The notes: generated by a model not told the origin, from the sequence alone. Numbered from the stretch's first letter, positions 1 through 20,000 are shown. The stretch: 20,000 nt of DNA from Seison nebaliae (GCA_023231475.1 JALJEE010001046.1:48273-68272), one strand, 5' to 3'. A program made the numbers and translations.

Positions 1-1967
1 GATGATGAAATAGCAGAAGTGTTTCTTAGTGAACAAATTCCAACAAAAGCACAAATTAAAGTTTTCTTCCCATAAATTATTTGTTTGATGTGAATGATTA
101 TTGGAAATTAGAAAGCTGTTCGACGTCAATGTTTAAAGAGAAAATTTACTCCAGTTTTCGTTGGTTCCGCTCTCAAGAATACGGGTGTTCAGAGTTTGTT
201 GGATGGTGTGGTGGAATATTTGCCAAATCCTTCCCAAGTCAATAACTTTGCAATAGAAACAACAAAGTTATTTTATTATATTATTTTATGATTATTTAAC
301 TTCAAATCATTTTGAAAAGAAATGAAGATGAAGAGGAAAAGAAAATTAAATTAAATAACTTTCGGAATTCAAATGATGAATTTGTTGGATTGGCATTCAA
401 ACTAGAAGTTATTTTTCTTTTTAAAACTATTTCATTTAATAATTGATTAATAATAAGGCAGGTCGTTTTGGACAATTGACATACTTGCGCATTTATCAAG
501 GAACTGTCGACAAAGGCCAATATATTTATAATACAAGAACGGGAAGAAGAATCAAAATTCCACGCATGGTACGAATGCATTCGAATCAAATGGAAGTTTA
601 TCTATTTTTCTCTCCGTTTCTTATCAATTATTTTCAGGATACAAATTCTGTATCATCTGGTGACATTGTCGCATTTTTTGGTGTAGATTGTGCGAGTGGA
701 GACACATTTGTTACAAATAAGAACCTTAAATTAAGTATGGTTAATGTTATGGTGTAGAGTTTGTTTTCAATTGAAATTTGAAATATTTTAGGAATCGATA
801 CATATTCCTGATGCCGTTCTCTCAATGTCTATTCGACCTGTTGATAAAAATAATTTAGAAAATTTTTCGAAAGGATTGGCAAGGTTAAATTTAATTGTTG
901 AATTATTTCTTTTAATATTAATTTTGTCCGTTTTCATTTCTTATTATTTCTCTGTAATATTTTCACTATAATTTAATTTTCATTATTAATTTTATTAATA
1001 TTTTCAGATTCACAAAAGAAGATCCCACATTTCGAATAGCTTACGATAATGAATCGAAAGAAACTTTGGCATCGGGCATGGGTGAATTACATTTGGAGAT
1101 TTATGCTCAACGTCTCGAAAGGGAATATGGAGCGAAATGTGTATTGGGCAAACCGAAAGTAGCTTTTCGAGAAACTTTAATCGAACCTTTCCAGTTATTA
1201 ATCGAACCTTTACTAATAGTCGTATTAATTGTGTTGAATGGAAATTATTGAAATATTTGAAGGTTCGATTATCAGCATAAAAGACAATCAGGAGGTCAAG
1301 GTCAATTTGGTCGAGTGATTGGAATTATTGATGTTAGACATATCTGCTTTTAATTGGTGAATTTATTGTTGATAATTTCTAGCCACTTGGTTCAGATAAA
1401 TATACTTTATGTGAATTCCGAAGTGAGACGATTGGAACAAATATTCCAACGCAATATATTCCTGGTATTCGTCGTGGTTTCAATGACAGTTTAATTGAAG
1501 GTCCATTAAGTGGAGCGATCGTATCTGGAATACGGATGCGATTACAAGATGGTGTAAGTCATGCTGTTGATTCAAGTGATTACTCTTTCTATCTAGCTAG
1601 TAAGGGCGCAATGAAACAAGCGTTCGATGAAGGACAATGGCAAATACTTGAACCGATTATGTTAGTTGAAGTAAATGCTCCCAGCGAATTCAAAGGTGCC
1701 GTTCTTGGACAATTGAATAAAAGAAGTGGAATCATTCAATCGACAGACGGTAGCATCGAATGGTCGACAGTATTCGCTGAAGTACCATTGAACAAAATGT
1801 TTGGTTATGCAACTGAGTTGCGTTCAGCCACTCAAGGTAAAGGAGAATTTACTATGGAATTTCATCGATACGCTCCCGCCCAAATAGATACGCAAAACCA
1901 AATTATTGACGAATATATTAATTCGAAACTCAAACCAGTATCAGTTCATTCGCGTAAGAAACGATGA
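1..1967 (+). CDS. GFM1: Mitochondrial translation elongation factor G1, 5'-truncated by the window edge. Exons: <1-60, 112-266, 320-407, 458-595, 638-739, 792-883, 1008-1193, 1263-1332, 1383-1967 (491 codons plus TGA)
   Basis: Spliced translation gives EF-G motifs: [142 protein letters not shown]. Eight GT-AG introns restore the frame (61-111, 267-319, 408-457, 596-637, 740-791, 884-1007, 1194-1262, 1333-1382). Confidence 0.96.
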
Positions 1968-2170
1968 ATTTTCTCAATTTAACAATTATTATGAAAGAAT
2001 TGTTTTGGCAGAAGATATAAAATTTTATGTATATTTATAAATTTTAATTTTATTCATAAGTAATCGTTATTATTATACAAATGTAATTTAGAAACATAAT
2101 TGTGATATTAGGAATATGTATTGACATACATTATATCACACACATTATAAATTTTATCCACTCTACCACA

Positions 2171-2210
2171 ATATCGATATAGTATAGAGTCTATACTATA
2201 GACTCTATAG
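2171..2210. repeat. Cluster of overlapping palindromes
   Basis: ATATCGATAT (2171-2180); 11-bp arms centred on 2189 (2178-2200); 13-bp arms TATAGAGTCTATA-C-TATAGACTCTATA (2183-2209); 7-bp arms centred on 2203. Confidence 0.85.
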
Positions 2211-3640
2211 CAACTTAAAGAATATGAAATATATAAGAAATCCTATTGATATTTAATGAAAAATTAGACATTTCGAAAGACGATTAAGTAATAATTCAAG
2301 AATGTTAGATGAAAGATTGTTTGTGCAAAAGAATAATTAATATGAAAATAATTTTGAAGGAGACATTACCATCAAATTAACTCTCTAATCTTATGAATAA
2401 TTGAGGAATAATGATGATTTCGATACATTTACCGTAATTTAAGTTAGTCTACTGAAAAATTTTTCAATGTTTATCATTATTATTGTTATTTAATATATGT
2501 GAAAAGTAGAAGAGAATTGCGATCTAAATATATAGAATAGATTATCGTGAAACCGAAGAAATTCGGAGTAATTTGAACATAAATATCTACAGATTGTTAT
2601 TTGATGATTTGGTTAAATATTTAACTTGTAAGAACTAAATGAAATTGACAAATTTATATTTTGGATAGTTCAATAGAGTTCATTATCGATCTAATCGATT
2701 TAATGATCCATTTAGTACTTTCGTTGAAGAAATGAAGAGACATGATTAGAAAGAGTTTTCTCAGAGTTTTCAGGTCAATTTGATCGCTTCTCCTCCCTAA
2801 ACTCCATCGCCATTCATCCAATAGAGAATAGTGAATCGAAATAGTCATAGATATAATTGATATTCAGGAGATAAATGAACAATCATAACAATGACCATAT
2901 TGGACTTTCATCTGTTCGCGACTTCCATTCTTCTGATTAGTATTCCAGTTGATCGAAGTTATGAATTGTTCAACAGATGACTATCTTGACCAAATATATT
3001 TCCACTGAATTTCATTGTTTTCTTATTTTGTTTTTCTATTCATTCCAAAGAATCGAAGTCTTTTATCTTCTGATTACATTATCATGTTCTTTCAATTAAT
3101 CGAAAGTTTCCATTCCAATTGCTCTCTTCATCAATCAAATAATTCACTTTTCCTCTAGTCTATCCGTCTGTTGGAGAAGTAATCATTGACGAGTAAATTG
3201 ATCGAAATGAAGAAATAGATTTTCCAGCAATCTTTCAGACAGACCACTTTCATTCCAAACAATATTTGGTGGATATATTTCGTTGCGGTTATATGGAGAT
3301 ATATCAATTGATACGGAACATTATCAGAGTGTTGACCTATTTTCATTAGAGAGAAAAAGGAAAGAAAAAAGACAACAAAACTTCTTTCTTCCCACCAAAA
3401 AAAAATGGAACTGATTGAAAGGGAAAGAAATTATCACACAATCAAATCGTGATGTGCGAATTAATGTAATTCTTTCAAAGTTGTCATCTGATATTGTTTA
3501 GGTTGATTAATTCTTGCAGAATATTCTTGGAAATATGTTTCTTCAAATTCTTATACTTCATTACCTTCCCACCTGTACCCTCAACTCACCTCAATCAAAT
3601 GTTACATTAACTTCCCAACTTCTTCCCGAAACATTTCTTT

Positions 3641-18080: not shown

Positions 18081-18081
<1 letters not shown>

Positions 18082-18411
18082 ATTTATTTCTATAATAACT
18101 ATCCAGTTTTCCAGATATCTTCTCTAATAAATCTTAATCAATAAATTGATAGATCGTTCCAAATTGAATGTATTATATAAGAATTTAGGTCATTCAAACT
18201 AAAAATGTTCACAATGCTATGATGATTGAAAACATAAAAATTAAGGATTAAAAACTAGTTCTATCTACTTGAAACCCAACACAAGGGGGAAAAGGATGTC
18301 TCCCAGTTGATCTTATATGTTTTACACGATTTAAGCTGTTTTATACGAATTTAATTGAACGAATATTTTTTAATAAACAATAATAAACAAAAATAAATAA
18401 ATTTTTTAAGA

Positions 18412-20000
18412 TCAATTCCTTTTCTTCTCATTAGTTTCCCATACAAAACTTGATCGTCTGGGAGGGCGTTTATAATAAGTGACAATGAACGCTTTTCGTA
18501 AATCTTCATTAGGCAACGGCATTAAATTCGACAGATAAACTTCAAAATACATTTTCATTTCATCTAAACATTGAGGACCGGCCGCTAAAATATTTTTGTT
18601 TTCTACCCAGGACGCGATATTATGATTTTTCTTTCTTTTTATATCGATTGAAGTGATATAATCTTTTGGTTTATCTTCTGAATCTGAAAGTGGTTGATTT
18701 AGAAAAAAAGTTTCTATATTTTCAAATTGATAATTATCTTTTTTTCGGTCAGTTTTCTTTTCTGGGATGAGACCTTTTCTTCTTAAATTGTTCAATCTTT
18801 CTTCTTCCATTTTCTCTTTGTTCCTCTTAATTCGTTCTTCTCTTTCTTTCCGAAGAAGTTTCTTATCTTCTGTAATTTTATTCAAATTGACTTTCGTCAT
18901 CAAATTTGTCGTTTTATTTGTTCTCTTTTTCGTTGTTCTCTTTTTTCCCATTTGAGTTGCATTTTTAGATTCTTCTTGATTCTCTTGTTCATCTTGTGAA
19001 ATTTGAGGAATTAATTCTTCTCGCCTCACTTTCTTCTCAATTTTCGTTTCCATTTTTTTCACTTTCGAAATTTTTTCTTGTTTTTTTCCATTTCCTAAAT
19101 TTTTCTTGATTGAATCTTCAATTGTCACTTTCCTGATAAATCGAGTTTTTCTCGAGTCATTCCAATTTGACTCAACAACGAATGTTTCTTGATTCGGAAT
19201 AATTTTTTCATTTTCTAAATCTAGTTTTGGAATATTTTCTTTTATTTCGCAGAAAGATTTCTCTAAAACATCTTCGTCTGTTCCTGATTCTTCCTTCTGT
19301 TTTATTCCATTGGAGGAGTTGACTAATGTTTCTCTAATGGCCTCATTCAAAACATCAATGGAATCATCTTCGAGTGACAACGTTCGATCCTCATCCTTCA
19401 TTACTGTCATATTTCTTTCTTCAACTGAATCATTTAGATTCGACACAGATAATGTCCATTCTAAATCGCACATATTTGTTTCATTCGATTTCTTGTGATT
19501 CATCATAACATTTTCTTCATTAAAAACGACTTGAAACTGGAAAAAAAGATAAAAAAGATTCGAAGAATTAAATTGAATTTAAACTATTTCTTCCGATGCT
19601 GACATGTGAAGTGATGAATTTTTCTTTTCAATTTCTGAGATAGTAATCTGGTTTTCATTTTCATCGTCATCGGAAAATATAATTTCATCATCATCTTCTT
19701 GAATGGTCGAAATATTCGAGTCCGTTTTAGATTGGTCAATTTTAGAAAATTTATTGACGAATATCGTTTCCTCAAATATATCATTATCGTCATCATTTTC
19801 TTCCTGTGAATTATCATCATCAGAAATTATTTCAGATTTTTCAAGGAAATATTCCTCAGAATTTAAAGATTTTTCCAAAATTGAAAGTTCTTTCTGTTTC
19901 TCACATTTCACATCATCATCATTAATTTCTTCTTTTCGTTCCTGTTTATTTTTGTTACCAAAACTTTCATTTTCAATTACTTTATCTTTTTCATTTACTT
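18412..20000 (-). CDS. INCENP: INCENP-like chromosomal passenger scaffold, 5'-truncated by the window edge. Exons: >20000-19585, 19536-18412
   Basis: Long acidic disordered region, a short E/K/R-rich helix, then a C-terminus DNYQF...SDSED...RKKNHNIASWVE...L...PLPNEDLRKAF...YYKRPPRRSSFVW that parallels the IN-box pattern (DNYGM...SDDSTDDE..RKPIPTWA...PLDLEDIF...YHKRTSSAVW). A 48-nt phase-0 intron 19584-19537 joins the two ORFs, and the frame is open to the window end. Confidence 0.7.

What the first reader, a model, noticed from the sequence alone, without database searches (positions are those of the whole stretch)
61..19584. Altered splice-donor code: 20 of 20 introns start GTT, and +5 G is largely lost
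Seen: donors are GTTTTC(61), GTTATT(267), GTTATT(408), GTTTAT(596), GTTAAT(740), GTTAAA(884), GTTATT(1194), GTTAGA(1333) in GFM1; GTTTCC(10448), GTTAAA(10647), GTTCGT(12636), GTTAGT(12904), GTTAGA(14499) in Shank; GTTTCA(15109-) in the RTEL gene; GTTAAA(17117-), GTTGGT(16863-), GTTCAA(16722-), GTTTCT(16549-), GTTGTG(16363-) in WRAP53; GTTTAA(19584-) in INCENP. T at +3 is 20/20, G at +5 is 5/20 and exonic -1 G is 7/20. Even at 40% background T, 20/20 has probability about 1e-8. Most junctions are fixed by homology and frame; 14499 has an in-phase GTC alternative at 14496. Established: the animal U2-type donor is GTRAGT, read by the U1 5' end and then the U6 ACAGAGA box, with a +3 purine and +5 G. 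Entamoeba uses GTTTGT but keeps +5 G. Inference: this animal lineage has reduced its donor to a near-invariant GTT, which suggests compensatory change in U1 snRNA, the U6 ACAGAGA box or its m6A, or donor-contacting proteins (U1C, LUC7, SNRNP27K, Prp8).
Basis: partly seen in the sequence, partly recalled or inferred. Interest (0 to 1): 0.9.

Follow-up and report, generated by a model that had tools for sequence, protein, structure and literature searches.

The report
Rotifer introns start GTT, not GTA
In this stretch of DNA from the marine rotifer Seison nebaliae all 20 introns begin GTT instead of the GTA or GTG usual in animals, while probable close relatives use GTA, so this animal has likely re-tuned how its splicing machinery reads intron starts, most likely by a matching one-letter change in the U1 RNA that could not be checked here.

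Summary
Confirmed. The window is Seison nebaliae. All 20 donors read GTT. 18 of 20 junctions reproduce NCBI-annotated proteins exactly, and 15 of 20 are the best or only in-frame GT/GC-AG join against homologues of other species. P is about 1e-6 against intron T content. AT-richness does not explain it: an equally AT-rich, short-intron group that branches next to Seison (weak support; probably bdelloids) has GTA at 40 of 40 distinct Shank donors, other animals GTT at 5 of 77. Two Seison introns sit at positions that are GTA/GTG elsewhere, so donors were converted in place. The remaining weak preferences fit the normal U1 register, not a shifted one. Best reading: a U2-type spliceosome whose U1 carries A opposite +3 (ACUAAC), as in Entamoeba; inferred only, since no genome, snRNA or RNA run was held. 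Eight paper searches found no report for Seison. The scan noted GTT donors before in protists (unchecked notes); none of the notes returned showed it in an animal.

The parts
61..111 (+). GFM1 intron, donor GTTTTC, 51 nt, phase 0
   Evidence: best join vs insect homologues; equals P0001
267..319 (+). GFM1 intron, donor GTTATT, 53 nt
   Evidence: a diverged low-depth contig aligns up to 269 (+3) and stops
408..457 (+). GFM1 intron, donor GTTATT, 50 nt
596..637 (+). GFM1 intron, donor GTTTAT, 42 nt
   Evidence: diverged copy shows 12 substitutions and 5 indels inside but none at +1..+4
740..791 (+). GFM1 intron, donor GTTAAT, 52 nt
884..1007 (+). GFM1 intron, donor GTTAAA, 124 nt
   Evidence: only in-frame join
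1194..1262 (+). GFM1 intron, donor GTTATT, 69 nt
1333..1382 (+). GFM1 intron, donor GTTAGA, 50 nt
10448..10501 (+). Shank intron, donor GTTTCC, 54 nt, at a position shared with other animals (profile column 283, phase 0)
10647..11987 (+). Shank intron, donor GTTAAA, 1341 nt, shared position (column 331, phase 1)
12636..12852 (+). Shank intron, donor GTTCGT, 217 nt
   Evidence: only in-frame join; equals P0122
12904..12968 (+). Shank intron, donor GTTAGT, 65 nt
   Evidence: only in-frame join; equals P0122
14499..14544 (+). Shank intron, donor GTTAGA, 46 nt; in-frame GTC rival at 14496
   Evidence: equals P0122; no homology test
15070..15109 (-). intron of a 231-aa gene ending RTEL, donor GTTTCA at 15109, 40 nt (second in-frame acceptor at 15052)
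   Evidence: reading frame only
17074..17117 (-). WRAP53 intron, donor GTTAAA at 17117, 44 nt
16814..16863 (-). WRAP53 intron, donor GTTGGT at 16863, 50 nt
16680..16722 (-). WRAP53 intron, donor GTTCAA at 16722, 43 nt
   Evidence: only in-frame join
16448..16549 (-). WRAP53 intron, donor GTTTCT at 16549, 102 nt; a second annotated isoform fits the same donor with acceptor 16479
16317..16363 (-). WRAP53 intron, donor GTTGTG at 16363, 47 nt; in-frame GTG rival at 16360
   Evidence: 4.8 bits above the rival; equals P0242
19537..19584 (-). intron of the last gene (INCENP label unconfirmed), donor GTTTAA at 19584, 48 nt
   Evidence: reading frame only
1..1967 (+). 3' part of mitochondrial EF-G1 (GFM1), SNEBB_000934
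9281..14624 (+). Shank, SNEBB_000935
15853..17443 (-). WRAP53/TCAB1, SNEBB_000937

Best explanation
All 20 introns found in this Seison nebaliae window start GTT, likely the rule genome-wide, and they are likely read by an ordinary major spliceosome whose U1 RNA is predicted to carry A instead of U opposite intron position +3 (ACUUAC changed to ACUAAC). Shown: GTT at 20 of 20; GT-AG ends, 40-69 nt for 16 of 20; two positions shared with GTA/GTG introns of other animals; weak leftover preference for -1 G, +4 A, +5 G in the normal register. Inferred: the rotifer line had already made +3 a near-obligatory pair while relaxing the exon side (neighbour group +3 A 40 of 40, -1 G 6 of 40); Seison then flipped that pair from A:U to U:A and its existing donors were converted in place. 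U6 need not change, as U+3 could wobble with G44. Because GTT alone carries little information, short length, T-rich body and a TTRAH branch-like motif likely help define the intron.
For: 20 of 20 GTT, 18 matching annotation. Neighbour group with the same intron size (43-62 nt) and T content (0.47): 40 of 40 distinct donors GTA, Fisher p 2e-16 if counted as independent; other animals 5 of 77 GTT. Shank column 283 phase 0 is GTA in 6 loci, column 331 phase 1 is GTG in 3 loci, both GTT in Seison. Canonical-register matches outside +1..+3: 64 vs 48.3 expected, p 0.0016; core -1/+4/+5/+6 31 vs 21.4, p 0.010. With a canonical U1 end Seison donors give a mean unbroken helix of 2.5 pairs; with A opposite +3, 4.4, close to 4.6 for the neighbour group with canonical U1 (part of the gain is built in). 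6 of 20 donors have a better canonical GTA/GTG site within 30 nt that is not used. GTRAG is not avoided in coding sequence, 12 vs 6.0 expected (one of 24 patterns, so weak). Precedent: Entamoeba GUUUGU with U1 ACAAAC and a typical U6 (bioRxiv 10.1101/2022.06.08.495308, passages and one section).
Against: U1 was not seen: no genome, no snRNA in the window. The same preprint reports that most lineages with atypical donors (yeasts, Giardia, Trichomonas, Thecamonas, Mamiellales) keep the standard U1, and Fritillaria, the one animal precedent found, keeps conserved U1/U6 recognition sequences and changes m6A and U2AF instead (PMC13326754, abstract and passages). No RNA junctions. Five genes on one contig; annotation may share my bias. 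GTT, GTTA and GTTAG are not significantly avoided in exons after controlling for codon-boundary dinucleotides. Neighbour-group donors come from only 6 orthologous positions in 14 loci, the group is unnamed, and its tie to Seison has SH-aLRT 94.5 but bootstrap 57. The diverged copy confirms an unchanged +3 at only 2 donors, which about 15% divergence could give by chance.
Confidence: 0.5

Rival explanations
1. Same genome-wide GTT code, but U1 keeps ACUUAC; +3 U is enforced later or by proteins, for example a U+3:G44 wobble with U6, altered snRNA modification, or changed U1C, LUC7, SNRNP27K or Prp8.
For: Most atypical-donor lineages keep standard U1. Fritillaria changes modification, not sequence. 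+3 faces U6 G44 and purines pair there only weakly. Entamoeba U1C is highly diverged.
Against: If U6 pairing dominated, +5 G should be strong, as in Entamoeba (96.9-98.5% GUUUGN), yet it is 5 of 20. With canonical U1 the mean unbroken helix is only 2.5 pairs. Absolute use of one base at +3 in both Seison (T) and the neighbour group (A) looks like a base pair that was swapped (inference).
Confidence: 0.33
2. Canonical U1 reads these donors one base out of step (shifted +1 or bulge +2/+3 register), so that GTT is really GN-T-AAG displaced.
For: Such registers exist in human (PMC4856993, passages). -1 A 8 of 20 and +4 A/G 12 of 20. Earlier scan notes read protist GTT donors this way (unchecked).
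Against: These registers put the key G at +6 (Table 2: the +6C controls); Seison has +6 G in 1 of 20. Shifted-register matches 59 vs 52.3 expected, p 0.14.
Confidence: 0.07
3. GTT is only a strong local or sampling skew: the genome has many GTA/GTG donors, or some junctions are mis-called.
For: One contig, five genes, no RNA. Three junctions have in-frame non-GTT rivals (14496 GTC, 16360 GTG, 19599 GC).
Against: 15 of 20 junctions are best or unique by scoring blind to +3, and a spliced aligner blind to +3 recovered both Shank donors in its range. Both strands, five genes. Lower bound 0.86.
Confidence: 0.06
4. The introns are new insertions of a GTT-starting mobile element, or +3 simply drifted to T under AT mutation pressure.
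For: Short-intron bodies are slightly more alike than shuffles (mean local score 17.3 vs 16.4, p 0.007). Intron bodies are 50% T.
Against: Both testable positions are ancestral. No target-site duplication: at most 3 nt of slide. Read depth is flat over the three bins holding the GFM1 introns. The equally AT-rich neighbour group is 40 of 40 GTA. +3 A is 0 of 20 although A is 30% of intron bodies.
Confidence: 0.04

Closest known systems
Entamoeba GUUUGU(U) donors with co-evolved U1 (AACAAAC); Roy and Bowser, bioRxiv 10.1101/2022.06.08.495308 (passages and section 14 read)
   Same: U at +3 as the rule; GT-AG introns; a U1 change opposite +3 would explain both.
   Different: Entamoeba is intron-poor with a rigid hexamer (87.9-89.5% GUUUGU, +5 G kept). 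Seison is an animal, has 20 introns in 8.6 kb of coding sequence here, fixes only +3, favours A rather than U at +4 and has +5 G in 5 of 20. Its U1 is unseen.
Animal U2-type donor GURAGU read by U1 AUACUUACCUG (PMC4856993, passages; PMC5387049, Table 1 passage)
   Same: GT...AG ends, shared intron positions, weak leftover -1 G, +4 A, +5 G.
   Different: +3 purine 0 of 20. In the human table the four listed GUU classes total 3,604 of 215,155 introns and all carry +5 G +6 U; only 3 of 20 Seison donors do.
Fritillaria borealis non-canonical introns (PMC13326754, abstract and passages)
   Same: An animal with a genome-wide change of splice signals handled by the major spliceosome.
   Different: There the terminal dinucleotides change, recognition broadens and U1/U6 recognition sequences are conserved; here GT-AG is kept and one position narrows to a new base.
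Shifted +1 and bulge registers of U1 at human donors (Tan et al. 2016, PMC4856993, passages; Roca and Krainer 2009 not held, seen only as cited)
   Same: Can explain individual GTT donors with a canonical U1.
   Different: Need G at +6; Seison has 1 of 20.

Membership tests
U2-type (major) spliceosomal introns | GT...AG termini, removal restores the frame | tested here: met
   20 of 20
U2-type (major) spliceosomal introns | purine at +3 (GTRAGT consensus) | tested here: not met
   0 of 20; this is the variant feature
U2-type (major) spliceosomal introns | branch-point-like motif near the 3' end | tested here: inconclusive
   TTRAH in 14 of 20 vs 8.7 expected, p 0.0075, one of 4 patterns tried; CTRAY 0 of 20
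U2-type (major) spliceosomal introns | excision seen in RNA | not testable with these tools
   no RNA holder listed; laid runs were DNA-like
U12-type (minor) introns | donor RTATCCTT (motif as in PMC5387049 Table 1) | tested here: not met
   0 of 20
Entamoeba-type co-evolved donor/U1 system | U at +3 in nearly all donors | tested here: met
   20 of 20 in this window
Entamoeba-type co-evolved donor/U1 system | rigid GUUUGU hexamer with +5 G | tested here: not met
   GTTTGT 0 of 20; +4 T 6, +5 G 5
Entamoeba-type co-evolved donor/U1 system | U1 5' end changed to complement the donor | not testable with these tools
   no genome, no snRNA in window
Shifted or bulged U1 register donors | G at +6 and A-rich +4/+5 displaced by one base | tested here: not met
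   +6 G 1 of 20; p 0.14 for the register
Transposon-derived (introner-type) introns | new positions, repeated bodies, target-site duplications | tested here: not met
   2 of 2 testable positions ancestral; no duplications, no family-level similarity; 18 positions untested

The most novel reading that the evidence does not exclude
Seison is the first animal with a recoded U1 recognition sequence (ACUAAC), and an intron-rich genome converted essentially all its ancestral donors from GTA to GTT in step with it, without first losing its introns.
Probability: 0.45. Interest if true: 0.88.

Novelty: new variant of a known kind. Interest (0 to 1): 0.74.

Why it matters
The +3 purine and the U1 5' end are among the most conserved features of animal splicing. 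Published co-evolution of the two is in amoebae (Entamoeba, intron-poor; Mastigamoeba), and one model quoted there has intron loss come first so that few substrates must change. Seison appears to have flipped +3 while keeping many introns, next to relatives with near-invariant GTA. That would give a natural A:U to U:A swap in an animal and a direct test of how a whole donor set crosses such a barrier, and of whether U1, U6 or proteins set the +3 rule. The test needs only the public assembly and RNA-seq. It also matters for annotation: donor models trained on other animals will mis-score this lineage.

Tried and rejected
No whole genome is held, so there is no genome-wide logo and no search for U1, U5, U6, U1C, LUC7, SNRNP27K, METTL16 or Prp8. 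Rfam on the window: 5 matches, all below gathering score, no spliceosomal RNA; no tRNA. Sequencing runs: no RNA holder listed; three of four laid runs cover the window evenly like DNA and show no exon-joining joints, the fourth laid nothing; this says nothing on expression. Diverged low-depth copy: informative for 596 and 267; for 408, 740 and 884 the rows were cut (27 substitution rows and 4 gap rows not shown). Exonic avoidance: an apparent GTTA deficit (22 vs 37.8) disappeared when codon-boundary dinucleotides were held fixed (22 vs 25.6); GGTT 13 vs 18.0 (p 0.028) and GTRAG 12 vs 6.0 (p 0.005) are uncorrected among 24 patterns. My first GFM1 script had wrong acceptors (redone); the ER-gene test used a wrong start. 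The spliced aligner called two spurious introns, one after tuning, inside a stop-free insertion of Shank exon 1 that the annotation treats as coding; not counted. Of 225 intron calls in 79 loci, 64 fall in the neighbour group (all GTA, 40 distinct); of the other 161, 52 at non-recurrent positions were dropped as probable noise (19 of them GTT) and 19 more for weak left flanks, leaving 90 calls, 77 distinct. The neighbour group could not be named by exact look-up. Atlas look-ups for the two unlabelled genes gave no answer. Literature: searches; none listed a paper on Seison splice sites or an animal with dominant GTT donors. The Seison genome paper (PMC8351084; passages, both supplements searched) has 0 hits for snRNA, 2 for intron and no donor analysis in the passages seen. 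Subscription papers are not searched, and bioRxiv supplements are closed; a census of RNA-binding proteins that includes Seison (10.1101/2024.08.22.609214, passages) may bear on the protein rival.
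Full report
Identity. The last GFM1 exon is 100% identical to NCBI protein SNEBB_000934 of Seison nebaliae; Shank and WRAP53 exons match SNEBB_000935 and SNEBB_000937 on a contig of the same length. No whole genome is held. The window is about 31% G+C. A genome paper describes two lineages of this species with 36.2% and 31.5% G+C on selected contigs (PMC8351084, passages).

The observation. All 20 donors read GTT at the stated places. I rebuilt five gene models. The GFM1, Shank and WRAP53 models equal the annotated Seison proteins, covering 18 of 20 introns. Annotation is not independent proof, so I scored every in-frame GT/GC-AG alternative against homologues of other species, with no weight on +3. 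GFM1 8 of 8, Shank 2 of 2 testable and WRAP53 3 of 3 with rivals came out top; two more WRAP53 introns have no in-frame rival. The thinnest margin is 16363 over a GTG at 16360 (4.8 bits). Three Shank introns rest on frame plus annotation, one with a GTC rival; two introns rest on frame alone. No junction was seen in RNA: no RNA holder is listed and the laid runs behave as DNA. Against the T content of short-intron bodies (0.50), 20 of 20 has probability 1.1e-6; the one-sided 95% lower bound on the share is 0.86 if introns are independent.

Controls from other animals. A scan of metagenome contigs with a Shank alignment gave 79 loci. I wrote a spliced profile aligner that accepts any GT or GC donor; on the window it recovered 10448 and 10647. 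It made 225 intron calls. Fourteen loci form an AT-rich group with 43-62 nt introns, 47% T in intron bodies and 80-96% protein identity among the 8 compared. In a Shank tree they branch with Seison (SH-aLRT 94.5, ultrafast bootstrap 57; 44 rows), which long-branch attraction could also produce. All 64 calls in this group, 40 distinct, start GTA, with +4 A 31, +5 G 22 and -1 G only 6. They come from six orthologous positions, so they are not 40 independent events. In the other loci, after the filters stated under Tried and rejected, +3 is A 43, G 24, T 5, C 5 of 77. AT-richness and short introns therefore do not produce GTT.

Conversion in place. Seison intron 10448 lies at profile column 283, phase 0, where 6 loci have a GTA intron; 10647 lies at column 331, phase 1, where 3 loci have GTG. 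Only these two positions could be tested. The introns show no target-site duplication and only slight mutual similarity. A low-depth diverged copy of GFM1 in two runs (65 substitutions and 15 gaps over 447-891) has 12 substitutions and 5 indels inside intron 596-637 but none at +1 to +4, and another such contig aligns through exon up to 269, the +3 base of donor 267, and stops. This confirms the exon limits and is compatible with selection on +3, but two sites are weak evidence, and the tool warns that single contigs below depth 5 may hold errors. A second lineage of the species would explain these contigs; I did not establish that.

What is left of the signal. Beyond GTT the donor carries little: +4 A 10 (p 0.046), +5 G 5 (p 0.019), -1 G 7 (p 0.062) of 20. 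Summed over eight positions outside +1..+3, matches to the canonical U1 register are 64 against 48.3 expected (p 0.0016); for the +1-shifted register 59 against 52.3 (p 0.14), with G at +6 in 1 of 20. Shifted and bulged registers depend on that G (PMC4856993, passages). Six donors have an unused, better canonical GTA/GTG site within 30 nt. GTRAG occurs 12 times in 8,637 nt of coding sequence against 6.0 expected, and GTT-type motifs are not clearly avoided. A TTRAH motif in the last 26 nt is mildly enriched (14 vs 8.7).

Mechanism. U1's 5' end, AUACUUACCUG, pairs with -3 to +8. With it Seison donors give 5.35 pairs and an unbroken helix of 2.5; with A opposite +3, 6.35 and 4.4, close to 6.74 and 4.6 for the neighbour group with canonical U1; a U1 changed at both +3 and +4, as in Entamoeba, fits less well (6.1 and 3.8). 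One pair of this gain is built in by the 20 of 20 count. I infer that +3 became a near-obligatory pair in this lineage and was flipped in Seison. At the next step +3 faces U6 G44, with which purines interact weakly (PMC11732430, passage); U could wobble there, so U6 need not change. Entamoeba shows this combination: modified U1, typical U6. Against it, most atypical-donor lineages in that preprint keep a standard U1, and Fritillaria keeps its recognition sequences and alters m6A and U2AF. I put 0.5 on a U1 sequence change, 0.33 on U6, modification or proteins, and 0.17 on the rest; about 0.9 that GTT dominates genome-wide.

Novelty. Searches naming Seison, rotifers or acanthocephalans or GTT/GUU donors listed no report of this. 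I saw listings and abstract starts for most hits, passages for the papers cited, one full section of the Entamoeba preprint, and searched supplements of PMC8351084 and PMC10125929. Papers outside the library, and large intron databases, were not seen. Earlier scan notes describe GTT donors in protists, Bonamia among them (unchecked); none of the notes returned concerned this genome or showed it in an animal. It works like the Entamoeba system but is not a member on the hexamer test; it is a new variant of the U2-type donor, in an intron-rich animal.

Noticed in passing
window 17640-18000: High-copy repeat between WRAP53 and the last gene: summed contig depth in this bin about 70-100 times background, thousands at single places, with many variant copies. 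No Rfam match, no Pfam match in two ORFs over it.
   Followed up: partly
window 18430-20000: Depth two to four times background over the last gene, suggesting near-identical extra copies.
   Followed up: no
window 4974-5162, +: Possible unannotated intron 5036-5140 with AAG|GTTAGT and TTTTAG ends, which would join a 27-codon ORF; the donor is the ideal match to the predicted U1. Unverified, not counted.
   Followed up: partly
window 14871-15606, -: 231-residue protein with a hydrophobic N-terminus and a C-terminal RTEL, resembling an ER-retention signal (recalled); no family hit above cut-off. Not the RTEL1 helicase.
   Followed up: partly
window 16448-16549, -: WRAP53 has two annotated isoforms, 434 and 254 residues; the short one fits an upstream acceptor at 16479 followed by a stop.
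   Followed up: partly
window 9281-10447, +: Seison Shank has no intron over the F0 and most of the ankyrin region, where other animals have up to eight recurrent positions, and carries a stop-free insertion of about 80 residues; no SH3 or SAM domain listed for P0122.
   Followed up: partly
window 11622, + (inside the long Shank intron): A perfect canonical donor TTG|GTGAGT that is unused in the annotation.
   Followed up: no
window 3514-3530, 3740, 6357-6493, 8254-8542: Non-coding stretches upstream of Shank where low-depth diverged contigs still align; possible conserved regulatory elements or untranslated exons.
   Followed up: no
L009, L010, L015, L016, L022, L034, L035, L038, L039, L047, L049-L051, L069: Probable bdelloid Shank loci have +3 A in 40 of 40 distinct donors and -1 G in only 6 of 40, itself stricter at +3 than the other animals sampled.
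   Followed up: partly
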